From: a virus
DNA length: 32,000 nt
IMG/VR virus record: IMGVR_UViG_3300031576_000027
Span: 46,962 to 78,961 of that record
Direction: 5' to 3' (one strand)
Shown: in pieces, positions 2 to 29,592 of the stretch
How the letters are laid out: the number at the start of each line of letters is the position of its first letter
Position numbering within the stretch: position 1 is the first letter of the stretch
Notes under the pieces: generated by a model
The model's input: the letters and a program-made list of their open reading frames with translations, nothing else
Told to the model about the DNA's origin: nothing
Database searches by the model: none
Position numbers and translations under genes: made by a program

Positions 2-457
2 CGGTCGCGCCAGCAGCAGCGCGACGCGGCGCCGGCACAGCCCGCGCCTGCCCCGACCGAGGAGGCTGGTGCCGCAGAGGCCGAGTGGCAGGACCCCGGA
101 CCGGACGGCCAGGAGCCCCCGCCTGGCGCCCTGGCCGCGGACGACCCGGACGAGGACTTCATCGCCCCGCCTGTCGCCGGGGTCAACGTTCTTGACGGGC
201 CCGAGGAGATCCGCGACAAGCTGCTGGCGTCGATCGCGGCGCTCAAGGACGAGCGGGCTGCGCGCGGGTGGGCGCACGCCAACAAGGCGCTGTACGACAG
301 CCTGTCCGCCCACAAGGGCATGCAGCAGGGGATCGCCCAGGCGCTGGTCGTCAAACAGCGGGAGATCGCCGGCTTCACCGGACAGACCGCGGCGGCCAAG
401 GGACGCAAAAAAGGGACCCAGGGCACGCTGGGCGGGGACGACAAGGGCGGGACGTGA
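2..457 (+). CDS. Partial CDS (3' end; start lies upstream of the window), hypothetical protein
   Basis: The frame is open from the window edge to TGA 455-457 with high GC3. It translates to ...DEDFIAPPVAGVNVLDGPEEIRDKLLASIAALKDERAARGWAHANKALYDSL.... The stop overlaps the next start (GTGA at 454-457). It is absent from the ORF track only because no start codon lies in the window. Confidence 0.5.
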   Translation, partial: RSRQQQRDAAPAQPAPAPTEEAGAAEAEWQDPGPDGQEPPPGALAADDPDEDFIAPPVAGVNVLDGPEEIRDKLLASIAALKDERAARGWAHANKALYDSLSAHKGMQQGIAQALVVKQREIAGFTGQTAAAKGRKKGTQGTLGGDDKGGT

Positions 458-882
458 AACTGGATGGGGTGGACTACCACGGCCTGGTAGGCGGCCAGGT
501 CGTGGTGGTCTACGGCGCGCGGCAGGACGACCTGAACCCGCGCTGGGATCTGGCGTGTCACTCGCCGGCCGGGTTCGGGTGGGGCTACGGCGGCAGCGGC
601 CCGGCACAGCTGGCGCTTGGCCTGGCATCCGATGTCCTGCATCGGACGTCCGCGCCGCATCCCAGGTGCCGGGCGGCCGTGCGTCGCAGGGCCGAACAAC
701 GATGGGACGCCATCTACTGTCCGGCCTGCCGGGAGGCGTCGCGGTTGCACCAGTACATCAAGGCCAGGATGGTCGCGCCGCTGCCGCAAGGAGTAGGCTG
801 GACGATGGCGGCCACCGATATCCTGGCCGCAATCACCGAAGCCGTCTTGGCCCATCCTGCCCCACCGCACGCAGACGAATGA
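454..882 (+). CDS. Conserved phage hypothetical protein with a GFGWGYGGSGPAQLALGLA motif (DUF6166-like by recollection)
   Basis: GTG 454 overlaps the upstream stop. The motif PAGFGWGYGGSGPAQLALGLASDVL is followed by CPAC. The stop overlaps the next ATG (ATGA 879-882). Confidence 0.6.
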   Translation: MKLDGVDYHGLVGGQVVVVYGARQDDLNPRWDLACHSPAGFGWGYGGSGPAQLALGLASDVLHRTSAPHPRCRAAVRRRAEQRWDAIYCPACREASRLHQYIKARMVAPLPQGVGWTMAATDILAAITEAVLAHPAPPHADE

Positions 883-4811: not shown

Positions 4812-5161
4812 GCACCAAGCCAGGCAGCGCGATGCCGAACGAGATGGCCCTGTGGGATCGGCTGCTGTCCGTCGTCTGGAACTGCCACCCCGAGCATGTC
4901 CACGCCGTGCGCAAGTTCTTCTTCACGCGCGGCTACGGGACCAACCTGCACCGTGGGCGGCGCAGCTACAGCGCCACGGATGACATCCGACAGCCCAAGT
5001 GCGAGCCGACGTGCCTGTGCTTGCTGATCCAGATGTCGTCGGCGCGCGGTCACGTCGTGCAGCAGATCCAGGGACATCAGAAGATCCACCCCACGCTGCA
5101 GGAACGCTGCACCGTCTGCCAGGCCATCGGGCAGCTGACCATCGAGGCGCTGGCGAAATGA
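4808..5161 (+). CDS. Hypothetical protein
   Basis: GTG 4808 sits in a GTGA overlap (ATG at MPNEMALW is an alternative start). The stop overlaps the next ATG (5158). Confidence 0.45.
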   Translation: MSTKPGSAMPNEMALWDRLLSVVWNCHPEHVHAVRKFFFTRGYGTNLHRGRRSYSATDDIRQPKCEPTCLCLLIQMSSARGHVVQQIQGHQKIHPTLQERCTVCQAIGQLTIEALAK

Positions 5162-5658
5162 GCGCGCTGTTCGATGACGTCGGCAAAGGCGCCGTGTTGG
5201 ACCCGACCGGCCGGTACCGGTTCCAGTTGTGGCGCCTGTGGGGCGCGGGGCAGCGCATCGGCTGGATCGGTTTGAACCCGAGCGTTGCGGATGCCAGCAA
5301 GGACGACCCAACCATCCGCCGCATGGTGCGTTTCGCGCGCGACTGGGGATACGACGGCATCACCGTCGTCAACCTGTTCCCGCTGCGGGCAACCGATCCG
5401 CGGCAGCTACAAGAGCACGCCCTGCCCGAGGACGTCCGCCGGGCCAACCTGGAGCACATCCTGGCAGCGGCGGCCCAGTGCCCCATGCTGATCGCAGCCT
5501 GGGGGGTGCGCGGCGGCCTGGACCAGACCGACACGGTCACGAGGATGCGACTGCGCGAAGCCGGGCGCGGGCTGTGGTGTCTGCGCAAGACCAAGGCCGG
5601 GCATCCAGAGCACCCGTTGTACGTGCCGGCCAACACCAAACCGCAGGTGTTCGCGTGA
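5158..5658 (+). CDS. DUF1643 family protein (UDG-superfamily-like fold by pattern)
   Basis: RYRFQLWRLWGAGQRIGWIGLNPSVADASKDDPTIRRMVRFARDWGYDGITVVNLFPLRATDP...AAWG...HPLY matches the DUF1643 signature. There are ATGA overlaps at both ends. Confidence 0.7.
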   Translation: MSALFDDVGKGAVLDPTGRYRFQLWRLWGAGQRIGWIGLNPSVADASKDDPTIRRMVRFARDWGYDGITVVNLFPLRATDPRQLQEHALPEDVRRANLEHILAAAAQCPMLIAAWGVRGGLDQTDTVTRMRLREAGRGLWCLRKTKAGHPEHPLYVPANTKPQVFA

Positions 5659-6455: not shown

Positions 6456-6685
6456 GCATGCCGATGGACCGACAGCGCCGCTACTACCTGCGGCACGACC
6501 TGGGCTGGGACATCCCGCACGAACGCGCGGTGTCGGGCGCGCGAGAACGCGCAGAACAGGACGAGGCGCGCAGGGTGGCCGGATCGTGCCTGTGCGGTTG
6601 CCCAAGGCTTGCGCATCCGCACGCGCGCGCATGCGGCATCTGCGGTGTCGGTCGCTGCCCAGCCTACATGGAGGCCGGCACGTGA
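6452..6685 (+). CDS. Small Cys/His-rich protein
   Basis: ATGA overlap at the start. The Cys/His stretch is CLCGCPRLAHPHARACGICGVGRCPAY. The stop shares a base with ATG 6685. Confidence 0.45.
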   Translation: MSMPMDRQRRYYLRHDLGWDIPHERAVSGARERAEQDEARRVAGSCLCGCPRLAHPHARACGICGVGRCPAYMEAGT

Positions 6686-7197
6686 TGTTCCGCGTCCTGA
6701 TCCCCGGCGATCCCGTCCCGCAGGGCCGCGGCCGGATCGTGCGCATCAAGGGCTTCGCGCGGATCGCGGACCCGTCCCGCAGTCGCAACTGGAAGGCGAT
6801 GGCGCAGTGGCACATGGCCAAGGCGATGTCGGACGCGCAGATCCGGGCGCCGCTGCAGGGCCCGCTGGAAGTCACGATCGAAGCCGTGCTGCGCTGCCCC
6901 AAGACCGACCACCGCAAGCGCGCACCACAGCCGCGGCGGTGGCACCAGGGGCGGCTCGACAGCGACAACCTGGCCAAGTCGGCTCTGGATGCCGGCAACG
7001 CCGTGCTGTGGATGGACGACGGCCAGGTGGCCGTGCTGCGTGTTCGCAAGATCATCGGACGCCAGGGCGAGGCGCCGCACCTGCTGATGCTGGTGCGCGA
7101 ACTGCCGGCCGTGCCGCACGACGAAGGTACGCCCAAGGAATGCAGCTGCAAGGAACGCCCGGGCGGATACTGCCCGGCACACGGGAGCCCACCCTGA
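6685..7197 (+). CDS. rusA: RusA-family Holliday junction resolvase (endodeoxyribonuclease RusA)
   Basis: IPGDPVPQGRGRIV...LEVTIEAVL...GRLDSDNLAKSALDAGNAVLWMDDGQVAVLRVRK shows the typical RusA motifs (PxxKxRPR-like, DxDN, DDxQ). The stop shares a base with ATG 7197. Confidence 0.8.
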   Translation: MFRVLIPGDPVPQGRGRIVRIKGFARIADPSRSRNWKAMAQWHMAKAMSDAQIRAPLQGPLEVTIEAVLRCPKTDHRKRAPQPRRWHQGRLDSDNLAKSALDAGNAVLWMDDGQVAVLRVRKIIGRQGEAPHLLMLVRELPAVPHDEGTPKECSCKERPGGYCPAHGSPP

Positions 7198-9518
7198 TGG
7201 CACAGACCGCACGCAAACGACAGCCCAAGGCAGCGCCACCACCGCCACCGGCATCGGTACCCACCGAGGTCATCGCGACGCAAGGCACGGAGGACCAGCC
7301 GCGCTGGACCGACTACATCCCGCTGTCGGGCCTGCGCCCGCACCCCAAGAACGAGGGCGTGCGCGATCACGACCTGGGCGTGATCCACGGGTCCATCGGG
7401 GAGCACGGCTACGGCAGTCCGATCGAGGTGGACGAACGGACGGGCCTGATGGTCGCCGGCCACGGCCGCCGCAAGGCGCTGCTGCAGATGCGCGACGCCA
7501 AACAGGACCCGCCGGACGGGGTGATCCGCGCGCCGGACGGCGACTGGATGGTGCCGGTTCAGCGCGGATGGCGCAGCCGGTCCGACGCCCAGGCCATGGC
7601 CTACCTCATTGTCAACAACCGCTCGCAGGAACTGGGCGGCTGGAAGGACGACGGGCTCGCGGAGGTGCTCCAGCAGTTGGCCCAGCAGGACGCCCTGATC
7701 GGAACGGGCTACAGCGCGGACGACGTCGCGGCGCTGCTGTCCCGCGTCGGCGGGCCGCCCAAGCTGGGCGCGCACGCCGGCAAGTTGCGCGAGAAGTTCC
7801 TGGTCCCCCCGTTCAGCGTCCTGGACGCCCGGCAGGGCTACTGGCGCGAGCGGCGGGAGGCCTGGATCAGCCTGGGCATCCAGTCCGAACTGGGCCGCGA
7901 CGCCAAGGCGTTCACGACGCAGGCGCAGATGGCCGACGGCAGCACCTTCTACGACTACACGGGCGTGTCCATCTTCGACCCGGTCCTGTGCGAACTGGTC
8001 TACCGGTGGTTCGCCCCGCCCGGCGCCGTCGTCCTGGATCCCTTCGCAGGCGGGTCGGTGCGCGGCGTCATCGCCGCGGCCTGCGGGCACCAGTACTGGG
8101 GCATCGACCTGCGGGCCGAGCAGGTCGCGGCCAACAAGGCCCAGTGGGGCAAAATCAAGCCCCTGGCCGCCGAGATCGCCCAGGCGCCGGTCGCCCAGGA
8201 TGCCACGGACAATGCCGTCCCGACTACGCCGATCGAGCGCCGCGGGCAAGTCTGGATCAAGCGCGACGACCTGTTCGCGATCGCCGGGGTCCGCGGCGGC
8301 AAGGTCCGCACGTGCTGGACGCTGGCCCAGGGCGCCAAGGGCCTGGTGACCGCCGGCAGTCGGCAGTCCCCCCAGGTCAACATCGTCGCCCACGTCGCCA
8401 AGCGCCTGGGCATCCCCTGCCGGGTCCATGTCCCAACCGGCAAGCCGACCCCGGAACTGCAGGCGGCGGCACAGGCCGGCGCCGACGTCGTGCCGCAGAC
8501 GCCAGGGCACAACAGCGTGATCATCAAGCGGGCCCGCGACGACGCCAAGGCGCGGGGCTGGCGCGAGATCCCGTTCGGGATGGAGTGCATCGAGGCCGTG
8601 GCGGCAACGTCCACCCAGGTGGCGGCGCTGCCAGACGGCTGCAAGCGGATCGTGGTGCCGGTCGGGTCCGGCATGACGCTGGCCGGGATCCTGACCGGCA
8701 TGCAGAAGGCCGGCGTCAGCCTGCCTGTGCTGGGGGTCGTCGTCGTGGCAGACCCGGCCGACCGCCTGGACAAGTGGGCCCCCAAGGGGTGGCGGCAGCG
8801 GGTCAAGTTGGTGCCGGCGGGCCAGGACTACCACGACCCGGCGCCGGTCACGGTCCTGGACGGGCTGCAGCTGGATCCCATCTACGAGTCCAAGTGCATC
8901 CCGCATCTCAAGCCGGACGATCTGCTGTGGTGCGTCGGCATCCGGCAGACGGCGGACGCGCGCGCAGCCGGGCAGGCACCGGTCCACGACCCCACCTGGA
9001 TCGTCGGGGCGTCCCCCGGCGCGGTTGGCGCCAAGGGGATCCCGGACGCCGACCTGGTCTTCACCTGCCCGCCCTACCACGACCTGGAACGGTACAGCGA
9101 CGACCCGGCGGACCTGTCCGCCATGTCCTGGGACGACTTCCGGGACTTCTACCGGGAGACGATCGTGGTGGCGGCCGCGCGCCTCAAGCCCAACCGCTTC
9201 ATGGCGATCGTCGTGGGCGAGATCCGCGACGGGCGCGGGCTGTACCGCAACCTGGTCGGCCTGACGATCGACGCGGCGATCGCGGCCGGGCTGGCCTACT
9301 ACAACGAGGCCATCCTGGTAACGCCGATCGGATCCCTGCCGCGGCGCATGGGACCGTTCAGCGCCTACCGGAAACTAGGGAAGACCCATCAGCAACTGCT
9401 GGTCTTCTACAAGGGCACCGACCCCAAGAAGCTGCAGCCGATCTTCGGGGACGTCGTGGTCCCGGAGGAGGCGTTGGTGCTGGCCGCGGTCGCCCAGGGG
9501 GACAAGGCAGATGGCTGA
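7197..9518 (+). CDS. ParB-like N-terminal domain + N6/N4 DNA methyltransferase, interrupted by an inserted PLP-dependent (ACC deaminase / D-cysteine desulfhydrase-like, fold type II) domain
   Basis: The ParB domain is LRPHPKNEG...GHGRRKA (about 7300-7560). MTase motif I is DPFAGGS (8037-8057). The PLP domain spans about 8218-8950: IERRGQVWIKRDDLF..RGGKVRT (Lys codon 8301-8303), VTAGSRQSPQ and VPVGSGMTLAG (8664-8678). MTase motif IV is TCPPY (9063-9077). The C-terminus is ...NEAILVT...RKLGKTHQQLLVFYKG. Confidence 0.8.
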   Translation: MAQTARKRQPKAAPPPPPASVPTEVIATQGTEDQPRWTDYIPLSGLRPHPKNEGVRDHDLGVIHGSIGEHGYGSPIEVDERTGLMVAGHGRRKALLQMRDAKQDPPDGVIRAPDGDWMVPVQRGWRSRSDAQAMAYLIVNNRSQELGGWKDDGLAEVLQQLAQQDALIGTGYSADDVAALLSRVGGPPKLGAHAGKLREKFLVPPFSVLDARQGYWRERREAWISLGIQSELGRDAKAFTTQAQMADGSTFYDYTGVSIFDPVLCELVYRWFAPPGAVVLDPFAGGSVRGVIAAACGHQYWGIDLRAEQVAANKAQWGKIKPLAAEIAQAPVAQDATDNAVPTTPIERRGQVWIKRDDLFAIAGVRGGKVRTCWTLAQGAKGLVTAGSRQSPQVNIVAHVAKRLGIPCRVHVPTGKPTPELQAAAQAGADVVPQTPGHNSVIIKRARDDAKARGWREIPFGMECIEAVAATSTQVAALPDGCKRIVVPVGSGMTLAGILTGMQKAGVSLPVLGVVVVADPADRLDKWAPKGWRQRVKLVPAGQDYHDPAPVTVLDGLQLDPIYESKCIPHLKPDDLLWCVGIRQTADARAAGQAPVHDPTWIVGASPGAVGAKGIPDADLVFTCPPYHDLERYSDDPADLSAMSWDDFRDFYRETIVVAAARLKPNRFMAIVVGEIRDGRGLYRNLVGLTIDAAIAAGLAYYNEAILVTPIGSLPRRMGPFSAYRKLGKTHQQLLVFYKGTDPKKLQPIFGDVVVPEEALVLAAVAQGDKADG

Positions 9519-9858
9519 CATCGTCGCGATCGTGGGCAGCCGGGACTTCCCGGACGCCGAGGCCAAGGTGACGGCCTACGTGCAGCACCTGCCGGACGGC
9601 ACCACCGTGGTGAGCGGCGGCGCATCCGGGCCTGACACCTACGCCGAGCGGGCCGCTAGGGCACGCGGCCTCCAGGTGATGATCTTCGCCGCGCAGTGGG
9701 ACAAGCACGGCCGGTCCGCCGGCTACATCCGCAACAAGCTGATCGTCGGTGCGGCGGATCGCGTCGTCGCCTTCTACAACGGGACCAGCAAGGGGACTGC
9801 GCTGACCATCGACCTGGCGCGCAAGGCCCGCAAGCCGGTGGAGGTCATCAGTCCATGA
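9511..9858 (+). CDS. DUF2493 / SLOG-superfamily (YspA/DprA-LOG-like) protein
   Basis: IVAIVGSRDFPD...VVSGGASGPDTYAERAARARGLQVMIFAAQWDKHGRSAGYIRNKLIVGAADRVVAFYNGTSKGT matches the DUF2493 pattern. The start overlaps the methyltransferase 3' end by 8 nt. Confidence 0.7.
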   Translation: MADIVAIVGSRDFPDAEAKVTAYVQHLPDGTTVVSGGASGPDTYAERAARARGLQVMIFAAQWDKHGRSAGYIRNKLIVGAADRVVAFYNGTSKGTALTIDLARKARKPVEVISP

Positions 9859-20638: not shown

Positions 20639-22120
20639 ATGCCAGGACCCGTGGAGCCCAACGACCAGCGCGGCGCAATCGTCGCGGAGACATCGGACGG
20701 CGACGTCCAGGTCTACGGGCCCGATGGTGAGCAGATCGAAGCCGAGACGCCGGAAGCAGCCAGGGTCATCGGCGGGCTGTCCGGCCGGCGCATCATCCTG
20801 CCGGCACCACTGCCGCACCAGGTCCCGGTGCTGCTGCATCCTGCCCGCAACAAGGTGCTGACAGCTGGACGCCGCTGGGGAAAGACCCTGACCGGCCTCA
20901 TCTGCGTGATCGAGGGACACGGCGCGCACCGCGGGCAGCACATCGGCGCGCTGCAGGGTGGCAACATCTGGTGGGTCACCACCACCCACGGCGTGGCCAA
21001 GGCCATCTGGCGCGACCTCAAGGCGGCCCTGCGCGAGGGATGGGTCAGCAAGTCAGAAGTGGACAAGCGGATCGTCCTGCCCGGCGGCGGCGCGATCACG
21101 GTCAAATCGGCCGACAACCCGGACAGTCTGCGCGGCGAGGGTCTGGACGGCGTGGTCATAGACGAGGCCGCGCACTGCAGCCGGGACGCCTGGGAACAGG
21201 GTGTGCGCCCTGCGCTGGTGGACCGCCAGGGCTGGGCGTTCTTCATCAGCAGCCCCAAGGGTCGCAACTGGTTCTGGCAGCTGTACGAGCAGGCTGGGCG
21301 CCTGCCCAACTGGGCGCGCTGGCAGCGGCCGTCCGCGGACAACCCGACCTTTCCGCAGTCCGAGGTGGACAAGGCGCAGCAGGAATCCCCGCCCAAAATC
21401 TTCCGCCAGGAGTACCTGGCCCAGTTCGAAGCGCCCGGCGGCGCCTTGTGCCAGCAGTCCTGGTTCCAGTACTTCACCATCGAGAACCCGGCCGGCGCGG
21501 CCAAGACCACCCAGCAGGCGCGGGACGTCGTCAAGGCGTTGGGCGCCAACCAGGGTGAGCCCGAGGCGTTGGGCGTAACCTTCGTCTGCGTCAAGACGGA
21601 CGGCAGCATCAAGCGAATCCCGCGCAACACCTGCCGCGTCTTCCAGACCGTTGACCTGGCAGCCAGCGTCAAGGCATCCGCGGACTACACCGTGGTAAGC
21701 ACCTGGGCTGCGACCCCCGACCTGGACCTGCTGCTGCTGGACCGCGTGCGTGGGCGTTTCGAGGGGCCAGACCAACCGGCGCTGATCACGGGCGCCTGGG
21801 CCAAGTGGTCGCCTGCCATGATCGCGATCGAACAAGTCGGGTACCAGTTGGCGCTGATCCAGGCCATGGTCCGACAGGGGCTGCCAATCATGGCGGTGCG
21901 CCCCGACGCCGACAAGGTCAGCCGGTTCATCCCGTTCTGCACCCGCATGAAGGCCGGCGCCGTCTACTGGCCCGCCGGCATGCCATGGCTGCACGACTGG
22001 GAGGACGAACTGGTGTCGTTCCCGGACGGCGAGCACGACGACCAGGTGGACACCGCCAGCCTGTCCGTCTGCCGCGAAGTGCTGGGCGCTGCGCGCAAGT
22101 TCACAGTCCGCCGCAGTTGA
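20639..22120 (+). CDS. terL: Terminase large subunit
   Basis: Walker A-like LTAGRRWGKT and Walker B-like LDGVVIDEAAH are present. The C-terminal nuclease-like region is VDLAAS...DYTV...VGYQLALIQ...DGEHDDQVDT. The gene sits immediately upstream of the portal. Confidence 0.9.
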   Translation: MPGPVEPNDQRGAIVAETSDGDVQVYGPDGEQIEAETPEAARVIGGLSGRRIILPAPLPHQVPVLLHPARNKVLTAGRRWGKTLTGLICVIEGHGAHRGQHIGALQGGNIWWVTTTHGVAKAIWRDLKAALREGWVSKSEVDKRIVLPGGGAITVKSADNPDSLRGEGLDGVVIDEAAHCSRDAWEQGVRPALVDRQGWAFFISSPKGRNWFWQLYEQAGRLPNWARWQRPSADNPTFPQSEVDKAQQESPPKIFRQEYLAQFEAPGGALCQQSWFQYFTIENPAGAAKTTQQARDVVKALGANQGEPEALGVTFVCVKTDGSIKRIPRNTCRVFQTVDLAASVKASADYTVVSTWAATPDLDLLLLDRVRGRFEGPDQPALITGAWAKWSPAMIAIEQVGYQLALIQAMVRQGLPIMAVRPDADKVSRFIPFCTRMKAGAVYWPAGMPWLHDWEDELVSFPDGEHDDQVDTASLSVCREVLGAARKFTVRRS

Positions 22121-22135
22121 GATACCGTCACAGTC

Positions 22136-24334
22136 ATGGGCGTGCTGGACAACCTGCGGTCGCTGTTCGGTGGTGGGGCATCAAACGGCGCAGGTGCGCG
22201 GCCCGTGGGCGCGACGGAGCGGACGTACGAAGGGCTGCGCAGTCGGATCAGCAAGTCGGCCGGCGACGCACAGCCGGCGTCGCGTCAGCTGCCGGACGAG
22301 TTCGCGACCCTCTACGCGGCGGGCATGGCCATCGAGCCGCCGTACGACCCGGAGCGGCTGCTGGTAGCTGCGGAGACAAACGAGGTCCACAGCGCCTGCC
22401 TGTTGGCCAAGGCGACGGACAGCGTTGGGCGCGGCTGGGAGTTCACGTCCGACGACGAGCAGGCAGCAGCCGAACCAAAGGACGCCGTGGTCGCGGCGCT
22501 GGAGGACATCTGCCCGGACTACACCTTCCAGGAACTGCTGCTGCAGGCGGCCTGGGAACTGGTGACGATCGGGTACTCCGGGTGGGAGGTAGTGCGCAAC
22601 CAGGACAAGACGATCGGCGCGGCCTACCCGATCCCGGCCCACACCCTGCGCGCCACGCGGTCCCCGGACATCTTCGTCCAGGTGCGCAACGCACAGGTCC
22701 GGTACTTCAAGCGGTTTGGAGTCGAGCGCACGCTGGACGCGATCACTGGCGAGTGGTTGTCGGATCAGGCCGCCGCGGCACTGACGCAGGACGCCCTGGA
22801 CCAGCCGCAGGGCAGCGTGTTCGGGATGCCGTCCGGTCTGGCCAGGCAGCCCGATCATGCCCCCGCCAGCGAGTTGATCACCTTCCGCCGCTACAGCCCG
22901 CGGTCCACGTTCTACGGGATGCTGGACTACATCGCCGGCATGCCGACCCTGGCCGAGTACGCGGCCAATCGGGACTACAACATCAGCTTCTACGAAACGG
23001 CCGGCGTCATGTCCAAGTTGGTCTTCCTGTCGTCGGACGTGCCCATCCCTGAGGTGGTCAACGAGATCGACAAGACCCTCAAGGACGCGCGCGGACGGCA
23101 GCACACCAACATGGTCGCGGAGCTTCCGGGCACGGCAAAGGTCCAGGTGGAGGATCTGGCGGTCGCCCCGCGCGAGCAGGGCTTCAAGGAGCGCCGGTTG
23201 GCGCTGGTCAAGTCCATCATGGTGGCCCACAGCGTCCCGCCCTACCGGATCGGCTACGCCGAACTGGGATCGCTGGGCGGATCCGCGGCGTCCGAGATGA
23301 TGAAGGCGTACCGGCACGGCGTGGTGGAGCCGATCCAGACGACGATCGAGCACCGCCTGGGCAAGACGCTGTTCGGTCCCGCCGGCTACAACCTGCAGGG
23401 CTGGGCCTTCACGCTGGCCGACCTGGACTGGGAGGAGACGGAACTGTCCCTCAAGATCGCGACCGAGTCCGTCAAGCTGGCGATCCTGTCCCCCAACGAG
23501 GCGCGGGCGGAACTGGGCCGCGACCCGGACGACGACCCCAACATGGACCGGAAGTACATGAACGGCCAGCCCATCGACACGGGCCTGGGCGCGCGGTCCG
23601 CGGAGGAGGTCGTGCGCACGCTGCGCGGGGAGGTCGCGCGCGCCATCCAGTCCGGCAAGCCCAAGCCACAGCAGCCGCAGCCGCTGCCGGTGGACACGGA
23701 GGTCCAGGTGCCGGCGGCCGCCAAGGCGCAGGCCAAGACCAACGGCAAGGCGCCGCTCAAGCTGCCGGCCAAGGTCGCCAAGGACGATCGGCCGCTAAAC
23801 CCGCAGGTCCCGACGTTCGGGCAGCCCGGCGCGAAGGTCGTCCTGGTCGGCCTGTGCCCGGGGAGTCAGGACGTCGATGCCGGCAGTCCGATGTCGGGCT
23901 ACGAACTGGACACCCTGGTGCACCGCTATCTGGACCCGCTGGGCCTGGGGCTGAACGAGGAGGACGTGGCGATCGTCATGGCCGTGCCTGAGATCACCCG
24001 GGACATCGTGGGCGAGCCGTGCAACCCGACCGACGCCGACCTGAACCGCTGGCAGCCGTGGCTGCACGGCGAGATCCGGCGCCTGGGCCCCGGCCTGGTC
24101 GTGGCGCTGGGTGACCTGCCGCGGCGGGCGCTGGGTGAACTGGGGCACGCCACCGTGATCCCGCCCGCACAGGCCCACGCCAAGCCGGAACTGGCCGATA
24201 CCCTCACGCGCCAGCTGGACGAAGTCCGCGGGATGCTGACTGAGCGCAAGGCGCGCGAGATGCTGGGGCACGGCCCACTCGGGAAGCGGGTCCGCGTGCT
24301 GGCCAACGGCAATGACGTGGACTCGCAGCACTAA
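22136..24334 (+). CDS. Portal protein fused to a C-terminal uracil-DNA-glycosylase-superfamily-like domain
   Basis: The portal core spans about 22136-23560 (YFKRFG..., FYGMLDYIAGMPTLAEYAANRDYNISFYETAG, VPPYRIGY...). A Pro/Gln/Lys/Ala-rich linker spans about 23560-23800. The UDG-like part spans about 23801-24334: VVLVGLCPGSQDVDAGSPMSGYELDTL...CNPTDADLNRWQPWLHGEIRRLGPGLVVALGDL. Confidence 0.8.
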   Translation: MGVLDNLRSLFGGGASNGAGARPVGATERTYEGLRSRISKSAGDAQPASRQLPDEFATLYAAGMAIEPPYDPERLLVAAETNEVHSACLLAKATDSVGRGWEFTSDDEQAAAEPKDAVVAALEDICPDYTFQELLLQAAWELVTIGYSGWEVVRNQDKTIGAAYPIPAHTLRATRSPDIFVQVRNAQVRYFKRFGVERTLDAITGEWLSDQAAAALTQDALDQPQGSVFGMPSGLARQPDHAPASELITFRRYSPRSTFYGMLDYIAGMPTLAEYAANRDYNISFYETAGVMSKLVFLSSDVPIPEVVNEIDKTLKDARGRQHTNMVAELPGTAKVQVEDLAVAPREQGFKERRLALVKSIMVAHSVPPYRIGYAELGSLGGSAASEMMKAYRHGVVEPIQTTIEHRLGKTLFGPAGYNLQGWAFTLADLDWEETELSLKIATESVKLAILSPNEARAELGRDPDDDPNMDRKYMNGQPIDTGLGARSAEEVVRTLRGEVARAIQSGKPKPQQPQPLPVDTEVQVPAAAKAQAKTNGKAPLKLPAKVAKDDRPLNPQVPTFGQPGAKVVLVGLCPGSQDVDAGSPMSGYELDTLVHRYLDPLGLGLNEEDVAIVMAVPEITRDIVGEPCNPTDADLNRWQPWLHGEIRRLGPGLVVALGDLPRRALGELGHATVIPPAQAHAKPELADTLTRQLDEVRGMLTERKAREMLGHGPLGKRVRVLANGNDVDSQH

Positions 24335-26740: not shown

Positions 26741-27142
26741 TCATCCGGTGTGCCCGGCACGGCAAGGCTCCCCGCCGCACAGGTCGCACGACGGCTTGGG
26801 CGGCGGGAACCGCTGGGCAGCGAAGGCGGCCAGCCCGTCGTCCAGGCGGCAATCGTAGCTGCGGCAGATTTTGGGCCGCCGGTCGTAGATCGTGCACGCG
26901 CCCCCGGGGCCCAGGAAGACGCACGCCTGGGTCACGGGGTGGCGCGCCAGGATCAGCACGGCCTCCTGCCGACCATCGGGCAGCGTCATGGTCCAGGTGT
27001 TCACCGGCAGCGGCGGATCGCCCGGTTGGATCAGCACCAGGCGGTCGGCGCTGGTGCAGCACGGTGCGCTGCAGCCCTGGCAGTTGACCTGGGCATCGCG
27101 GCCAATGTCTGGCAGCACCAGCAGGTGCGGGCGCTTGGGCAT
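26741..27142 (-). CDS. YkgJ-family (CxxCxxCC) cysteine-cluster protein (alternative GTG start at 27268)
   Basis: The sequence reads NCQGCSAPCC...ACVFLGPGGACTIYDRRPKICRSYDC. The ATG at 27142 is preferred because the upstream 42 codons look non-protein-like. Confidence 0.6.
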   Translation of the reverse strand: MPKRPHLLVLPDIGRDAQVNCQGCSAPCCTSADRLVLIQPGDPPLPVNTWTMTLPDGRQEAVLILARHPVTQACVFLGPGGACTIYDRRPKICRSYDCRLDDGLAAFAAQRFPPPKPSCDLCGGEPCRAGHTG

Positions 27143-27269
27143 GGACGCGGGGATCAGACGCGGGGTTCCGTCCGTCACGGTCGTGGCGCCCCGCAGGACA
27201 GGCAGACGAAAACGAAGTGGCCACCGCGCGCCACGCGCAAGACCCAGGCATGCCGGTCCAGCAGGCACT

Positions 27270-27981: not shown

Positions 27982-29592
27982 ATGAGCGTTCGCGCCGCGC
28001 CACCGGACAGTGGGCTTGCCGTCATCCTGCCGATCCCCAAGGCGCTCGCAGACCAGCTGGCGCTGGCCGACGTGGACGGCGCGACGCCGGCCGACGAGAT
28101 GCACGTGACGCTGGCCTACTTGGGCAAGGTCCAGGATCTGCCGACCGGGGCAGCTGCGCTGATGGAGGCCGTGGTGGCGGACTGCGCCAAGGCCCATCCG
28201 CCGGTTGCCGGTCTGGTGTCCGGCTGGGGCCGCTTCAACGCCAGCGCCAGCAGCGAGGGTCGCGACGTCATCCACCTGTCGTTCGACAGCCCGGGCCTGG
28301 CCGACCTGCGCGCGGACCTCGTGCGGCGCTTGGACGACGTGGGGTTGCCGATCAAGCGCGACCACGGCTTCGACCCGCACATCACCCTGGCCTACGTGCA
28401 GGCCGGTCGGCCCGTGCAGTTGGAGGTGGACACGTTCCCCGTGACGTGCGGCGAGATCCACGCCACCGCCTGGTCGGCCATGTTCCGACTGGCCAGCGCG
28501 TACGCGCTGGCGGGCGCCGTCGCAAAGCGCGCGGACGACCCCGTGCCCGTCGGGAAGCCGTTCGCCGGCTTCACCGACTTCGCGGACTGCGTGGCCGGCA
28601 ACCAGGACAAGGACGATCCCGAGGCGTTCTGCGCGTGGCTGCAGACGCAGGCCGGCGAGAAGACCAAGGCAACCTTCACCACCACCGACCTGGCGTCGGG
28701 TGGACGCATCGCACCGCAGCAAGGGCTCAAGCCCGCAGGGCACGCGCGCGGCGGCAAGCCGTACTGGCTGCCCAGCGAGGTGCCCGACGAGGACAAGGAG
28801 CGGCTGGCCAAGATGCTGGACACCAACCGCGACCAGGCGATGACGCACCTGGACCAGATGGCCAAGGCAATGGCCGGCGACACCAGCGACCGCTGCGCGT
28901 TCTGCAACGGCGTGGGGCACTACACCTACACGTGGGGCGATCGTGGCGCGCGCATGCTGACCTGCGCCCCGCATCGCGACATGGCGCACCGGATCACGCA
29001 CTGGTTCCAGACGGCAGCCACCGAGTACCGTTGGCCCGAGAAGGACGCGCTGCCTTCGACCGTCCCCGATCCCGCGGAAGAGGATCAGCGGATCCAGCCG
29101 GGTCCTGGCGCGGGCCACGCGATCCCGGAGGGCGACGAGGAGGAGGGCGTGTCGATGGCCAAGGCCGCGCCGGCAGCTGCGGCGGCCGCGGGGCCCAAGC
29201 AGGCCACCGCGATGCGCGTGATCAAGGCGCTGCAGGAGCAGCGGTACACGCTGTCGGTCGCCTACCCGGCCAACCAGATCGACGCGCACAAGGACTTCGC
29301 GACGGCGGCCCAGGTCGAGGAGACGGCCTGGGAGTACGCCAAGGGCGGGCGCAAGATCGGCCTCATGCACCGCAAGGGGACGGACGGCGCGGGCACCGTC
29401 GTGGAGTCCTACATCTACCGCGGACCGGACTGGCACATCGGCGGCGAAACGGTCAAGGCGGGTGACTGGCTGCTGGGCGTGATCTGGTCGGAGAACGCCT
29501 GGAACATGATCAAGGGCGGCGCCTACACGGGCCTGTCCATCCAGGGCTACGCGCGCAAGAAGGCGGCGGCGGCACGGCAATCGGCGGCCTGA
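27982..29592 (+). CDS. 2H phosphoesterase (LigT / 2'-5' RNA ligase-like) + Cys/His cluster + XkdF-type putative prohead protease fusion
   Basis: There are two H-x-T-x motifs: HVTL (28102-28113) and HITL (28378-28389). The central cluster is CAFCNGVGH...CAPHRDMAH. The C-terminal XkdF-like region (about 29241-29560) reads RYTLSVAYPANQIDAHKDFATAAQVEETAWEYAKGGRKIGLMH...VVESYIY...GDWLLGVIWSENAWNMIKGGAYTGLSIQG. Confidence 0.75.
   Translation: MSVRAAPPDSGLAVILPIPKALADQLALADVDGATPADEMHVTLAYLGKVQDLPTGAAALMEAVVADCAKAHPPVAGLVSGWGRFNASASSEGRDVIHLSFDSPGLADLRADLVRRLDDVGLPIKRDHGFDPHITLAYVQAGRPVQLEVDTFPVTCGEIHATAWSAMFRLASAYALAGAVAKRADDPVPVGKPFAGFTDFADCVAGNQDKDDPEAFCAWLQTQAGEKTKATFTTTDLASGGRIAPQQGLKPAGHARGGKPYWLPSEVPDEDKERLAKMLDTNRDQAMTHLDQMAKAMAGDTSDRCAFCNGVGHYTYTWGDRGARMLTCAPHRDMAHRITHWFQTAATEYRWPEKDALPSTVPDPAEEDQRIQPGPGAGHAIPEGDEEEGVSMAKAAPAAAAAAGPKQATAMRVIKALQEQRYTLSVAYPANQIDAHKDFATAAQVEETAWEYAKGGRKIGLMHRKGTDGAGTVVESYIYRGPDWHIGGETVKAGDWLLGVIWSENAWNMIKGGAYTGLSIQGYARKKAAAARQSAA

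What the first reader, a model, noticed from the sequence alone, without database searches (positions are those of the whole stretch)
7197..9518. ParB-DNA methyltransferase with a complete PLP-enzyme (ACC deaminase / D-Cys desulfhydrase-like) domain inserted between SAM motif I and catalytic motif IV
**Seen in sequence.**
- A single 773-aa ORF contains four parts in order.
- The first is a ParB/Srx-like N-domain (GHGRRKA).
- The second is an amino-MTase N-lobe ending in DPFAGGSVRGVIAAACGHQYWGIDLRAEQVAANKAQ.
- The third is about 245 aa resembling fold-type-II PLP enzymes of the ACC-deaminase family.
- In that part, WIKRDDL and GGK (Lys codon 8301-8303) stand where the family has GGNK with the Schiff-base lysine.
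- The part also has a GSGMTLAG phosphate-binding loop at 8664-8678.
- The fourth is the remaining MTase, with PTWIVGAS...DLVFTCPPY...NEAILVT...HQQLLVFYKG.

**Recollection (needs checking).**
- In related phage ParB-methylases the motif I to (D/S/C)PPY segment is short.
- If so, this is a domain insertion next to the SAM/target pocket, not an end-to-end fusion.

**Inference.**
- An enzyme that holds SAM, PLP and DNA together is a plausible catalyst for an amino-acid-type DNA base hypermodification.
- Examples are transfer or processing of the SAM aminocarboxypropyl moiety, or a beta-replacement onto a base.
- PLP enzymes are already known in phage thymidine hypermodification pathways, but not in this architecture as far as I know.
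- The gene is translationally coupled to RusA upstream and to a SLOG/DUF2493 gene downstream.
Basis: partly seen in the sequence, partly recalled or inferred. Interest (0 to 1): 0.85.

Follow-up and report, generated by a model that had tools for sequence, protein, structure and literature searches.

The report
Phage DNA methylase carrying PLP enzyme
A phage gene encodes a DNA-binding (ParB) methyltransferase with a complete vitamin-B6 (PLP) enzyme inserted in it; this pairing is widespread but unstudied, the PLP part resembles enzymes known to trim amino acids attached to phage DNA, and so it probably makes an undescribed chemical mark on DNA.

Summary
ORF 7197-9518 (773 aa) reads ParB/Srx, then the methyltransferase (MTase) N-half with motif I, then a complete fold-type-II PLP domain, then the MTase C-half with CPPY. 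Relatives without the insert join motif I to the WIxGDS/TCPPY segment within about 10 residues.

The architecture is not unique. About 386 clusters (at 50% identity) carry this PLP clade. In 80 viral loci it sits:
- inside the MTase (61)
- fused at the C-terminus (4) or N-terminus (1)
- in a separate gene with the MTase in the locus (13)
- alone (1)

The partnership is therefore conserved, but the exact insertion point is not essential.

The PLP domain keeps the Schiff-base lysine K369, the Gly loop and the ACC-deaminase Tyr-Glu pair. Its only PHROG matches are the families of ViI gp226 and M6 gp52, the PLP decarboxylases shown to act on amino-acid:thymine conjugates in DNA. No thymidine-hypermodification genes are nearby; the MTase is the constant partner.

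Best reading (inferred, about 0.4): a self-contained SAM-based hypermodification module. The MTase-fold enzyme installs an amino-acid-bearing group and the PLP domain decarboxylates it, with aminopropyl as the predicted product. No paper describing it was found. Cultured phages that carry the module make it directly testable.

The parts
7197..9518 (+). Whole gene: ParB - MTase N-half - PLP domain - MTase C-half, 773 aa
   Evidence: Translation. An identical 773-aa protein, P0001, is called on a 78,981-nt metagenomic phage contig.
7197..7301 (+). Pro/Ala-rich N-terminal tail (aa 1-35), mostly predicted disordered
   Evidence: pLDDT <50 over aa 1-10 and 17-30 and low across the first 30 residues. 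Not conserved.
7302..7766 (+). ParB/Srx-like N-terminal domain (aa ~36-190) with the AGHGRRKA motif
   Evidence: phrog_620 ParB-like, E 2e-22. PF02195 is present on homologues. Foldseek BFVD matches ParB/sulfiredoxin models. Pfam ParB_N is not significant on this sequence.
7782..8186 (+). MTase N-half (aa ~196-330): conserved PPFSVLD...W..R..W leader, strand beta1 with motif I DPFAGGSVRG (8037-8066), strand beta2 (GIDL), long helix alphaB
   Evidence: Pfam N6_N4_Mtase positions 177-218. Invariant residues in A1/A2. Secondary structure from the model.
8199..8972 (+). Inserted fold-type-II PLP domain (aa 335-592)
   Evidence: PALP E 2e-15. Fold match to 4d8t/7ysl/1j0a/1rqx. hhalign to ViI gp226 (96.9%) and M6 gp52 (94.6%). 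PHROG hits phrog_3650 and phrog_7093.
8301..8303 (+). K369, predicted Schiff-base lysine (GGK)
   Evidence: Aligns to the lysine of the GGNK motif in D-cysteine desulfhydrase and ACC deaminase (K51 by recalled numbering) and to the FK lysine of IlvA. Aligns to K92 of ViI gp226 and K36 of M6 gp52. Invariant in A2.
8367..8375 (+). S391-P392-Q393 (in TAGSRQSPQ), at the position of the ACC-deaminase Q-S-N substrate/PLP loop
   Evidence: Aligned to 'GGIQSNQ' of 1rqx and 'GAIQSNH' of 4d8t. The S-P-Q triplet is shared with ViI gp226.
8664..8687 (+). G490-SGMTLA-G497, glycine-rich loop predicted to bind the PLP phosphate
   Evidence: Aligns to PVGGGGLAAG of IlvA and ASGSAGTHAG of D-cysteine desulfhydrase. 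Nearly invariant.
8883..8888 (+). Y563-E564 (LDPIYESK), the ACC-deaminase-type Tyr-Glu pair; the acidic residue is predicted to face the pyridine nitrogen
   Evidence: Aligns to the YE of DPVYEGK in 1rqx and to the YT in 4d8t. M6 gp52 has YD. R6L and Mae-JY30 have YD. Invariant in A2.
8988..9446 (+). MTase C-half (aa ~598-750): strand beta3 (W601...GAS), strand beta4 with motif IV T-C624-P-P-Y627 (9066-9077), and the NRF, RD..G.Y, YNE and RKLGKTHQ motifs
   Evidence: Alignment to 2zie and CcrM. phrog_12517/498. Invariant residues. CPPY is universal in the family.
6685..7197 (+). RusA-like resolvase gene; its stop shares one base with the target's ATG (neighbour, not part of the module)
   Evidence: Pfam RusA E 1e-23. 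Sequence. Found in only a few related loci.
9511..9858 (+). SLOG/YAcAr (DprA-like) gene overlapping the target's end by 8 nt (possible accessory, weak evidence)
   Evidence: Pfam YAcAr/DNA_processg_A. Sequence. A homologue lies directly after a stand-alone PLP gene in L075/L097 and near one in L013, L027 and L006.

Best explanation
The gene encodes a self-contained, post-replicative DNA-modification module made of three cooperating parts.

1. **ParB/Srx domain.** It brings or activates the enzyme on double-stranded DNA.
2. **Amino-methyltransferase-fold domain.** It has a permuted motif order (I then IV) and the motif IV variant CPPY. It binds SAM and flips out a target base.
3. **PLP domain.** It is of the same kind as the phage enzymes ViI gp226 and M6 gp52, which decarboxylate amino acids already attached to bases in DNA.

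**Proposed pathway (inferred).** The MTase-fold domain transfers an amino-acid-bearing group from SAM to an exocyclic nitrogen of a base; the 3-amino-3-carboxypropyl group is the obvious candidate. The PLP domain then forms a Schiff base with the free alpha-amine and removes CO2, leaving a positively charged 3-aminopropyl base. The order could be reversed, with SAM decarboxylated first and the aminopropyl group transferred second.

The gene sits at the end of the early/replication genes. In many relatives it lies directly before the terminase genes, so DNA would be modified before packaging. The mark would protect the DNA from host nucleases.

**Shown:** the anatomy, the intact catalytic residues, the tight evolutionary coupling of the two enzymes, and homology to DNA-acting PLP decarboxylases.

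**Inferred:** the substrate, the group transferred and the product.
For: **Coupling of the PLP clade to this MTase clade**
- Of 80 IMG/VR loci, 61 have the PLP module inserted in the MTase, 4 have it fused C-terminally, 1 N-terminally, and 13 carry it as a separate gene with the MTase in the locus (9 of these within 700 nt). Only 1 has it alone.
- Unfused examples: L012 has ParB | MTase | PLP as three consecutive genes before the terminase. Mycobacterium phage Vincenzo gp1 is a complete ParB-MTase and gp2 is the PLP enzyme. Microcystis phage Mae-JY30 is similar.

**The PLP domain is intact and under selection**
- K369, S391, the Gly loop and Y563/E564 are invariant.

**Homology to DNA-acting PLP decarboxylases**
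- hhalign gives 96.9% probability (E 1.8e-10) to ViI gp226, with K369 aligned to K92 and shared SPQ, GYN and QVANxP motifs.
- hhalign gives 94.6% (E 6.7e-8, 228 columns) to M6 gp52, with K369 aligned to K36.
- The only PHROG families the domain hits are those of gp226 (phrog_3650, 122 bits) and gp52 (phrog_7093, 64 bits). Vincenzo gp2 bridges them: 357 bits to phrog_3650 and 79 bits to gp226 directly.
- Those two enzymes were shown in vitro to decarboxylate O-SerT and Calpha-GlyT in DNA (PMC8989533).
- An acidic residue at the position that contacts the pyridine nitrogen in ACC deaminase (my recollection) suits carbanion or decarboxylase chemistry (established PLP enzymology, inference). It is Glu here, Asp in gp52, R6L and Mae-JY30.

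**No other installer is present**
- No 5-hmU DNA kinase, amino-acid:DNA transferase, radical-SAM isomerase or M6 gp58-type thymidylate-synthase (dUMP hydroxymethylase-like) gene was found in the window or in about 115 related loci. The 16 kb upstream on the same contig has none either.
- Conserved neighbours are only terminase and portal genes.

**Tailoring-type additions in relatives**
- A GNAT acetyltransferase is fused to the PLP module, next to a second MTase and a Mom-family gene.
- Other relatives add a 2OG-oxygenase-like domain or an extra class-I MTase, or a Cys-rich module.

**Precedents**
- A phage MTase-fold enzyme transfers a non-methyl group (carboxymethyl from Cx-SAM) as a handle for hypermodification, with ParB-domain proteins co-occurring (PMC12783734).
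- A ParB homologue activates a DNA-modifying dioxygenase on dsDNA (PMC13229309).
Against: - The MTase motifs are identical in relatives with and without the PLP module (A1). This argues that the MTase chemistry is the same in both, possibly plain methylation.
- The one characterised ParB-MTase, BCE_0392, gave m6dA by LC-MS, though only weakly, and showed no in-vitro methyl transfer (PMC3459991). Its membership of this clade was not verified.
- With the family's own HMM, ViI gp226 and M6 gp52 score no better (44 and 39 bits) than cellular D-cysteine desulfhydrase and ACC deaminase (44 and 38 bits). The link therefore rests on PHROG and hhalign profiles and shared motifs, not on a clear nearest-neighbour relation.
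- No transfer of an aminocarboxypropyl or aminopropyl group to DNA turned up in the literature searches.
- A few PLP genes of this clade have no MTase within the DNA available (L014, L065, and the Bradyrhizobium-type loci).
Confidence: 0.4

Rival explanations
1. An ordinary m6A (or m4C) DNA methyltransferase whose PLP partner handles the cofactor rather than the DNA. The PLP enzyme would destroy the inhibitory by-product S-adenosylhomocysteine or homocysteine by gamma-elimination to 2-oxobutanoate. Alternatively it would convert SAM into a form that only the phage enzyme can use. Either way methylation runs fast before packaging.
For: - The MTase motifs are unchanged between PLP-linked and PLP-free relatives.
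- A ParB-MTase was reported to make m6dA.
- SAM/SAH is the one ligand an amino-acid-processing PLP enzyme and an MTase obviously share (inference).
- The ACC-deaminase-type residues K, S, Y and E suit C4 amino acids and 2-oxobutanoate formation (established ACC deaminase chemistry).
- PLP-linked forms were seen in phages of Actinobacteria, Alphaproteobacteria and Cyanobacteria. PLP-free forms were seen mostly in Firmicutes phages. From memory, these host groups differ in how they clear SAH.
- A SpeD-like decarboxylase directly follows PLP-free ParB-MTases in phage ZRG1 and in L107.
Against: - A freely diffusing by-product does not explain repeated physical fusion in three topologies.
- It does not explain the GNAT, oxygenase, MTase and Cys-rich additions.
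- The nearest characterised phage relatives act on DNA-bound substrates.
- I know of no PLP-dependent SAH or SAM gamma-lyase of this fold.
- Phage SpeD homologues can be ornithine or arginine decarboxylases rather than SAM decarboxylases (PMC10407285 abstract).
Confidence: 0.25
2. Two independent functions joined in one 'polyvalent' phage protein. The ParB-MTase methylates DNA. The PLP enzyme does something unrelated, such as metabolic reprogramming or anti-defence action on a free amino acid or a signalling molecule. They travel together only because they are expressed together.
For: - Phage and plasmid polyvalent proteins commonly fuse N6A methylases and ParB domains to unrelated effector domains (PMC5512222).
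- The PLP module works as a separate protein in some phages, and a few loci have no MTase nearby.
- The linkers around the insert are variable.
Against: - The association is specific to one MTase clade in 79 of 80 viral loci and survives fission, C- and N-terminal fusion and insertion.
- Insertion inside a catalytic domain is unusual for casual fusions.
- The polyvalent-protein survey contains none of the terms 'pyridoxal', 'desulfhydrase' or 'aminotransferase'.
Confidence: 0.2
3. The PLP module belongs to a thymidine-type hypermodification pathway, as in ViI and M6. Its other genes lie elsewhere in the genome, and the MTase is a bystander.
For: - Homology to gp226 and gp52.
- Only part of each genome was visible.
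Against: - No 5-hmU DNA kinase, amino-acid:DNA transferase, radical-SAM isomerase or M6 gp58-type thymidylate-synthase gene occurs in the 32-kb window, in the 16 kb upstream, or in about 115 loci.
- In ViI- and M6-type phages those genes cluster with the PLP gene.
Confidence: 0.08
4. The PLP domain is a degenerate, non-catalytic insert serving as a scaffold, a ligand sensor or a target-recognition domain.
For: - It is shortened (about 258 aa against about 330-340 in ACC deaminase or D-cysteine desulfhydrase).
- The Asn of the family's Q-S-N loop is replaced by Pro.
Against: - The lysine, the Gly loop, the Ser and the Tyr-Glu pair are invariant across hundreds of sequences.
- The active decarboxylase M6 gp52 is equally short at 278 aa.
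- The S-P-Q variant is shared with the active ViI gp226.
Confidence: 0.04

Closest known systems
ViI gp226 and M6 gp52: PLP-dependent decarboxylases of amino-acid:thymine conjugates in DNA (5-NeOmdU and 5-NedU pathways; Lee et al. 2021, PMC8989533)
   Same: - Phage-encoded, short fold-type-II PLP enzymes.
- The Schiff-base lysines align (K369 with K92 and K36).
- The S-P-Q, GYN and QVANxP motifs are shared with gp226.
- An acidic residue follows the conserved Tyr (gp52 has YD).
- The PLP domain's only PHROG matches are their two families.
   Different: - The partners differ. Here there is no 5-hmU DNA kinase, amino-acid:DNA transferase or radical-SAM enzyme; the constant partner is a ParB-amino-MTase, usually in the same polypeptide.
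- Identity is only about 25-29%.
- The substrate base and the appended group are unknown.
Insert-less phage ParB-MTases (Listeria phage B054 gp77, Enterococcus phage phiFL3A gp36; possibly B. cereus prophage BCE_0392)
   Same: - Same ParB domain.
- Same permuted MTase with DPFAGGSVRG and (S/T)CPPY.DLE.YSD.
- About 40% identity.
- Same genome position just ahead of the terminase genes.
   Different: - They lack the PLP domain.
- BCE_0392 was reported to nick DNA and to give weak m6dA. Whether it belongs to this clade was not tested.
ACC deaminase / D-cysteine desulfhydrase family (1rqx, 1j0a, 4d8t)
   Same: - Best solved-structure fold match.
- The four ACC-deaminase key residues (the GGNK lysine, the QSN serine and the DPVYEGK Tyr-Glu pair) are conserved.
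   Different: - Scores lie far below the curated family cut-offs: 21-38 bits against 289-392.
- The domain is about 80 residues shorter.
- The Asn of the Q-S-N loop is Pro here.
- The context is phage DNA enzymes, not metabolism.
CmoX/CmoY cytosine carboxymethylation pathway of cyanophage S-B43 (PMC12783734)
   Same: - An MTase-fold enzyme installs a non-methyl, SAM-derived group on phage DNA, and a second enzyme elaborates it.
- ParB-domain proteins co-occur.
   Different: - CmoX is a C5-cytosine MTase homologue that uses carboxy-SAM made by CmoA.
- Here the MTase is of the N6/N4 amino type, with no CmoA and no ligase.
ParB-dependent thymine dioxygenases (5mYOX176/ParB176; PMC13229309)
   Same: A ParB homologue acts as a required helper of a post-replicative DNA-modifying enzyme on dsDNA.
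   Different: - The catalytic partner differs: an Fe/2OG dioxygenase.
- The ParB there is a separate protein.

Membership tests
Fold-type-II PLP enzymes (Pfam PALP, PF00291) | Whole-protein score above Pfam's gathering threshold | tested here: met
   57.2 bits against a cut-off of 35, E 2e-15.
Fold-type-II PLP enzymes (Pfam PALP, PF00291) | Schiff-base lysine at the conserved position | tested here: met
   K369 aligns to the lysine of D-cysteine desulfhydrase, ACC deaminase and IlvA. Invariant in the family.
Fold-type-II PLP enzymes (Pfam PALP, PF00291) | Glycine-rich phosphate-binding loop and the overall fold | tested here: met
   The GSGMTLAG loop aligns to the GGGG loop of IlvA. Foldseek gives E 4e-12 to 4d8t with target TM-score about 0.62.
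Fold-type-II PLP enzymes (Pfam PALP, PF00291) | Actually binds PLP | not testable with these tools
   Needs the purified protein and its absorbance spectrum.
ACC deaminase (TIGR01274) / D-cysteine desulfhydrase family (TIGR01275) | Score above the curated NCBIfam cut-off | tested here: not met
   21.1 bits against 392, and 37.9 bits against 289.4.
ACC deaminase (TIGR01274) / D-cysteine desulfhydrase family (TIGR01275) | ACC-deaminase key residues K51, S78, Y294 and E295 (numbering recalled from the literature) | tested here: met
   K369, S391, Y563 and E564 align to those positions of 1rqx. The neighbouring Asn79 is Pro392.
Phage DNA-acting PLP decarboxylases (ViI gp226 = phrog_3650; M6 gp52 = phrog_7093) | Significant sequence or profile similarity to the characterised members | tested here: met
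   phrog_3650 E 4.5e-35 and phrog_7093 E 3.5e-17. hhalign 96.9% and 94.6%.
Phage DNA-acting PLP decarboxylases (ViI gp226 = phrog_3650; M6 gp52 = phrog_7093) | Closer to these than to cellular PLP enzymes | tested here: inconclusive
   With the family HMM, gp226 scores 44.1 bits and gp52 39.1. D-cysteine desulfhydrase scores 44.1 and ACC deaminase 37.7.
Phage DNA-acting PLP decarboxylases (ViI gp226 = phrog_3650; M6 gp52 = phrog_7093) | Gene context: 5-hmU DNA kinase plus amino-acid:DNA transferase | tested here: not met
   No homologue in the window or in about 115 loci, nor in the upstream 16 kb.
Phage DNA-acting PLP decarboxylases (ViI gp226 = phrog_3650; M6 gp52 = phrog_7093) | Decarboxylates an amino acid attached to a base in DNA | not testable with these tools
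   Needs an enzyme assay and nucleoside LC-MS.
N6/N4 amino-DNA methyltransferases (Pfam N6_N4_Mtase, PF01555) | Score above the gathering threshold | tested here: met
   33.9 bits against 26.7.
N6/N4 amino-DNA methyltransferases (Pfam N6_N4_Mtase, PF01555) | SAM-binding motif I (FxGxG) | tested here: met
   DPFAGGSVRG aligns to DPFAGTG of 2zie and DPFFGVG of CcrM. Invariant.
N6/N4 amino-DNA methyltransferases (Pfam N6_N4_Mtase, PF01555) | Catalytic motif IV (D/N/S)PP(Y/F) | tested here: inconclusive
   The motif is (S/T/G)-C-P-P-Y in all 87 family copies counted. The Cys aligns to the S of SPPY (2zie) and the D of DPPY (CcrM). The effect of the Cys is unknown.
N6/N4 amino-DNA methyltransferases (Pfam N6_N4_Mtase, PF01555) | Motif order IV...I, as in the Pfam model (beta class) | tested here: not met
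   Here motif I (aa 281) precedes motif IV (aa 624), and it does so in insert-less relatives too. The domain is circularly permuted relative to the model.
ParB/Srx N-terminal domain (PF02195) | Sequence and fold match | tested here: met
   Four PHROG ParB families from E 2e-22 to 4e-13, plus a weaker fifth (phrog_930, E 0.0013). Fold matches to ParB/sulfiredoxin models. PF02195 is present on homologues. Pfam on this sequence alone is not significant.
ParB/Srx N-terminal domain (PF02195) | NTP binding/hydrolysis or nicking activity | not testable with these tools
   The GHGRR motif is present. Activity needs biochemistry.

The most novel reading that the evidence does not exclude
This family makes the first known SAM-derived aminoalkyl base in DNA. 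An amino-MTase-fold enzyme transfers the 3-amino-3-carboxypropyl arm of SAM (or the aminopropyl arm of decarboxylated SAM) to an adenine or cytosine nitrogen in phage DNA. A DNA-acting PLP decarboxylase built into the same protein matures it to a cationic 3-aminopropyl base. That would be a one-gene hypermodification system found in phages of actinobacteria, proteobacteria and cyanobacteria.
Probability: 0.25. Interest if true: 0.9.

Novelty: new variant of a known kind. Interest (0 to 1): 0.7.

Why it matters
- **A new installer.** PLP decarboxylases that work on DNA are so far known only in thymidine hypermodification clusters, where a kinase and an amino-acid:DNA transferase put the amino acid on the base. 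Here the same kind of PLP enzyme is locked to a SAM-dependent amino-methyltransferase instead. If the two act in sequence, the MTase fold is being used to install something other than methyl on DNA.
- **A large untapped family.** About 386 clusters at 50% identity would then encode an undescribed DNA base.
- **Practical consequences.** Such marks affect restriction and other anti-phage defences, DNA packaging, and base-calling in nanopore and SMRT data. They also supply new enzymes for DNA labelling.
- **Directly testable.** Cultured phages carry the module: Vincenzo and AlanGrant on M. smegmatis, Pam4, Mae-JY30, R6L and ZS04. A single gene should suffice in E. coli.
- **Annotation needs fixing.** Current names are misleading: 'carboxylate deaminase', 'nucleoside deaminase', 'DNA modification methylase', 'CcrM-like'.

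Tried and rejected
1. **Frameshift in Vincenzo: rejected.** I first read Vincenzo gp1/gp2 as a frameshift-split copy of the fused gene. HMM mapping shows gp1 is a complete insert-less ParB-MTase and gp2 a stand-alone PLP enzyme.
2. **An obligatory extra partner gene: none found.** All-against-all clustering of ORFs from about 90 loci gave only terminase, small-terminase-like, portal and a few RusA clusters.
3. **SLOG gene as a partner: weak.** It recurs in only about 5 independent loci.
4. **Sulfur-mobilisation idea** (desulfhydrase plus conserved cysteines plus the Cys of CPPY)**: dropped.** The cysteines near the PLP motifs are not conserved in Pam4, Vincenzo, R6L or Mae-JY30. CPPY is equally present in PLP-free relatives.
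5. **SpeD-like gene next to PLP-free ParB-MTases** (ZRG1, L107)**: kept only as a weak hint** of convergent decarboxylation. Phage SpeD homologues can be ornithine or arginine decarboxylases.
6. **Cys-rich module beside the PLP domain in 8 loci.** It gives only a weak DUF3109 match and no PDB match. Its link to the window's CxxCxxCC protein (26741-27199) is motif-level only, at 5% hhalign probability.
7. **Literature.** Nine searches found no description of a ParB-MTase-PLP protein. The R6L and Pam4 genome papers do not mention the PLP part.
8. **Inter-domain geometry: not measurable.** Model coordinates are not exposed.
9. **Prophage distribution.** The genome scan found only 12 loci, too few to test the host-metabolism correlation.
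10. **Megablast against phage genomes:** nothing found.

Full report
**Setting.** The window is 69% G+C phage DNA with nearly all genes on the + strand. Genes identified:
- DUF1643 at 5158-5658 and RusA at 6685-7197
- the target gene at 7197-9518
- a SLOG/YAcAr gene at 9511-9858
- large terminase at 20648-22120, and a portal at 22196-24334
- a MuF-like gene and a capsid gene

An identical 773-aa protein is called on a 78,981-nt metagenomic contig.

**Checking the observation.**
- The ORF translates to 773 aa. It overlaps the RusA stop by one base and the SLOG start by eight.
- Pfam finds PALP (57 bits, cut-off 35) at aa 350-539 and N6_N4_Mtase (33.9 bits, cut-off 26.7).
- Motif I (DPFAGGS, aa 281-287) matches the C-terminal end of the Pfam model. 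The CPPY segment (aa 618-683) aligns to the N-terminal SPPY region of 2zie and the DPPY of CcrM.
- The methyltransferase (MTase) is therefore circularly permuted relative to the beta-class model: motif I comes before motif IV.
- The ParB part is supported by PHROG families, by PF02195 on homologues and by fold matches. Pfam alone does not detect it on this sequence.

**It is a real insertion.** Three insert-less ParB-MTases were aligned with the query: Listeria phage B054 gp77, Enterococcus phage phiFL3A gp36 and Pseudomonas phage ZRG1. They share 39-42% identity with it, including DPFAGGSVRG and (S/T)CPPY.DLE.YSD. They pass from '...EQV.AN' to 'NWI.DDS' in about 10 residues, where the query has about 280 (alignment A1).

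In the AF2 model (mean pLDDT 87, pTM 0.68) the insert lies between a long helix (307-328, alphaB) and strand 600-603 (beta3). By the canonical class-I MTase topology (established knowledge), that connection is on the edge of the sheet opposite the SAM pocket. The two linkers (about 319-343 and 586-599) are unconserved and have lower pLDDT. I could not measure distances, because model coordinates are not exposed.

**The PLP domain is intact.** A profile of the domain (A3) was searched against PDB sequences:

| Residue here | Aligns to |
|---|---|
| K369 | the Schiff-base lysine of D-cysteine desulfhydrase, ACC deaminase (GGNK) and IlvA |
| S391 | the Ser of the ACC-deaminase Q-S-N loop |
| VPVGSGMTLAG | the glycine-rich phosphate loop |
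| Y563-E564 (DPIYESK) | the Tyr-Glu of DPVYEGK in ACC deaminase 1rqx (Y294-E295 by recalled numbering); D-cysteine desulfhydrase has Tyr-Thr there |

All of these are invariant in an 88-sequence alignment, and the lysine is kept even in the most divergent members. Foldseek's best solved structures are D-cysteine desulfhydrase and ACC deaminase. By curated cut-offs, however, the domain belongs to neither family: 21-38 bits against 289-392.

**The architecture is common but unstudied.**
- The top 120 database relatives of the whole protein all carry PF00291, nearly all together with PF01555.
- An exhaustive search with the PLP domain alone finds 386 representatives (50% identity clusters) at E<=1e-30. 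Most sit inside 600-1300-aa proteins.
- Cultured phages have it too. Pam4 gp70 is named 'PLP dependent enzyme'. Erythrobacter phages R6L gp1 and ZS04 are named 'DNA modification methylase'.
- The R6L paper calls gp1 a CcrM-like methylase and never mentions PLP. The Pam4 paper is silent.
- Nine literature searches found no description of the combination.

**The key comparative result.** The PLP module also exists as a free protein of about 240-280 aa, 60-69% identical to the insert. I mapped HMMs of the four parts onto 80 IMG/VR loci retrieved with the PLP profile:

| Arrangement of the PLP module | Loci |
|---|---|
| Inside the MTase (44 with ParB in the same ORF, 12 without it, 5 cut by a contig end or frameshift) | 61 |
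| Fused to the C-terminus of an intact MTase | 4 |
| Fused to the N-terminus | 1 |
| Separate gene, MTase in the locus (9 of them within 700 nt) | 13 |
| Alone | 1 |

Examples of the separate-gene form:
- L012 has ParB | MTase | PLP as three consecutive genes before the terminase.
- Mycobacterium phage Vincenzo gp1 is a complete ParB-MTase and gp2 is the PLP enzyme, at the genome's left end before the small terminase.
- Microcystis phage Mae-JY30 is similar.

Fusion in three topologies plus conserved adjacency is strong evidence that the two enzymes work together. It also shows that the exact insertion site is incidental. Motif IV is (S/T/G)CPPY in all 87 copies counted.

**What the PLP module resembles most informatively.** The only PHROG families it hits are phrog_3650 (122 bits) and phrog_7093 (64 bits). 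These are the families of Salmonella phage ViI gp226 (801 bits) and Pseudomonas phage M6 gp52 (530 bits).

Lee et al. (PMC8989533) showed with purified proteins that these two enzymes are PLP-dependent decarboxylases acting on DNA. They convert O-seryl-thymine and Calpha-glycinyl-thymine into 5-NeOmdU and 5-NedU. The paper names K92 and K36 as the aldimine lysines.

- Profile comparison gives 96.9% (E 1.8e-10) to gp226, with K369 on K92 and shared S-P-Q, GYN and QVANxP motifs.
- It gives 94.6% (E 6.7e-8, 228 columns) to gp52, with K369 on K36 and YE on YD.
- Vincenzo gp2 bridges the groups: 357 bits to phrog_3650 and 79 bits directly to gp226.
- One caution applies. With the family's own HMM, gp226 and gp52 score 44 and 39 bits. 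That is the same range as D-cysteine desulfhydrase (44) and ACC deaminase (38). A specific sister relationship is therefore not proven.

**What is absent.**
- No homologue of the 5-hmU DNA kinase, the amino-acid:DNA transferase, the radical-SAM isomerase or the M6 gp58 thymidylate-synthase-type (dUMP hydroxymethylase-like) enzyme occurs in the window or in about 115 loci.
- The 16 kb upstream on the same contig has a PAPS-reductase-like gene, a C5 methylase and a ScoMcrA_N protein, but none of those genes.
- The only recurrent neighbours are packaging genes. The MTase is thus the only candidate for installing a substrate for the PLP enzyme.

**Proposed mechanism (inferred).**
1. The ParB domain loads or activates the enzyme on dsDNA. 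A precedent is a ParB homologue required by a phage thymine dioxygenase on dsDNA (PMC13229309).
2. The MTase-fold domain binds SAM, flips out a base and alkylates an exocyclic nitrogen.
3. The PLP domain needs a free alpha-amino acid. The only amino-acid moiety available from SAM is the 3-amino-3-carboxypropyl arm.
4. Transfer of that arm followed by PLP-dependent decarboxylation would leave a 3-aminopropyl base. Decarboxylating SAM first and then transferring aminopropyl gives the same product.

Several observations fit this model:
- An acidic residue where ACC deaminase contacts the PLP pyridine nitrogen (my recollection) suits carbanion chemistry. It is Glu here, Asp in gp52, R6L and Mae-JY30.
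- Relatives add tailoring-type domains. One has a GNAT fused to the PLP module beside a second MTase and a Mom-family gene. Others have an Asp/Arg-hydroxylase-like oxygenase or an extra class-I MTase. Eight loci have a Cys-rich DUF3109/CxxCxxCC-like module.
- A phage MTase-fold enzyme that transfers carboxymethyl from carboxy-SAM is a direct precedent, and ParB proteins co-occur with it (PMC12783734).

**Evidence against, and rivals.**
- The MTase motifs do not differ between PLP-linked and PLP-free relatives.
- The B. cereus ParB-MTase BCE_0392 gave m6dA, though weakly and with no in-vitro methyl transfer, plus nicking. Its clade membership is unverified.
- A plain methylase whose PLP partner removes SAH or homocysteine, or reshapes SAM, therefore remains a serious rival (0.25). 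A SpeD-like gene after PLP-free ParB-MTases in ZRG1 and L107 fits either model. It is weakened because phage SpeD homologues can be ornithine or arginine decarboxylases.
- Independent 'polyvalent' fusion (0.2) is disfavoured by the clade-specific, topology-independent association.
- A hidden thymidine pathway (0.08) and a dead domain (0.04) are unlikely.

**Verdict.** The thing is a widespread, uncharacterised variant of known parts, and it predicts a new DNA hypermodification that can be tested in cultured phages with one gene.

Noticed in passing
window 22196-24334 (+): The portal protein carries a C-terminal uracil-DNA-glycosylase-superfamily domain (Pfam Phage_portal aa 89-441 plus UDG aa 539-650). 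A portal-UDG fusion is unusual.
   Followed up: no
window 28018-29592 (+): A 524-aa protein joins an N-terminal 2'-5' RNA ligase/LigT-like (2H phosphoesterase) domain to a C-terminal XkdF-type serine protease (Peptidase_S78_2). It lies within the head-gene region.
   Followed up: no
window 26741-27199 (-): A minus-strand gene in the structural region encodes a CxxCxxCC (PF03692) zinc/iron-chelating protein. A different Cys-rich module (weak DUF3109 match) is fused beside the PLP domain in 8 related loci, e.g. L017, L048, L051, L052, L061, L084 and L090. The two share only the C..LGP.G.C...D.P..C..Y pattern; hhalign probability is 5%.
   Followed up: partly
window 9511-9858 (+); L075:6815-7261; L097:3815-4261; L013:7779-8471: A SLOG/YAcAr (DprA/LOG-like) gene overlaps the end of the target gene. 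A homologue also directly follows a stand-alone PLP gene in L075/L097, and one lies about 1 kb downstream in L013. It is a possible occasional accessory.
   Followed up: partly
L119:1-2706 (same contig, about 16 kb upstream of the target): The same phage encodes a PAPS-reductase-like protein, a C5 DNA methylase and a ScoMcrA_N-domain protein in a row. Erythrobacter phage R6L also has a PAPS reductase (gp7) close to its ParB-MTase-PLP gene.
   Followed up: no
L037:3893-8716 (IMGVR_UViG_3300029288_000063, 253 kb): Three ParB-MTase paralogues lie in tandem. Only the middle one carries the PLP insert.
   Followed up: no
L007:2908-4753 (Pseudomonas phage ZRG1); L107:967-2779: A SpeD-type 'adenosylmethionine decarboxylase' gene directly follows a PLP-free ParB-MTase of the same clade in two phages. 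It scores 86 bits on TIGR03330 against a cut-off of 75.7. Its real substrate is uncertain.
   Followed up: partly
L110/L111:4940-10551: A large phage (contigs of 90-178 kb) has a run of genes: MTase of this clade, then a PLP-GNAT fusion, then (after a minus-strand gene) a second N6_N4 MTase, then a Mom-family gene. A thymidylate-synthase-like gene lies 2 kb further on. This looks like a DNA-modification island.
   Followed up: partly
L003:1406-2275 (Vincenzo gp2); L006:4573-5283 (Mae-JY30): Public annotations of the stand-alone PLP genes are misleading. They read 'carboxylate deaminase', 'nucleoside deaminase' and 'DNA modification methylase'.
   Followed up: yes
window 454-882 and 5158-5658 compared with L008: The coordinate offset between the window and contig locus L008 is 2798 at gene 454-882 but 2804 from 5158 onward. 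The window's copy therefore has a 6-nt length difference somewhere between about 882 and 5158. The protein at 454-882 is identical in both.
   Followed up: no
L113-L116 (Bradyrhizobium-type soil contigs): The most frequently sampled stand-alone PLP protein (P0191; indexed in 116 blocks of the collection, 24 contigs read) sits between a GcrA-like gene and a DsbA-like gene. No MTase is visible in the short contigs.
   Followed up: no
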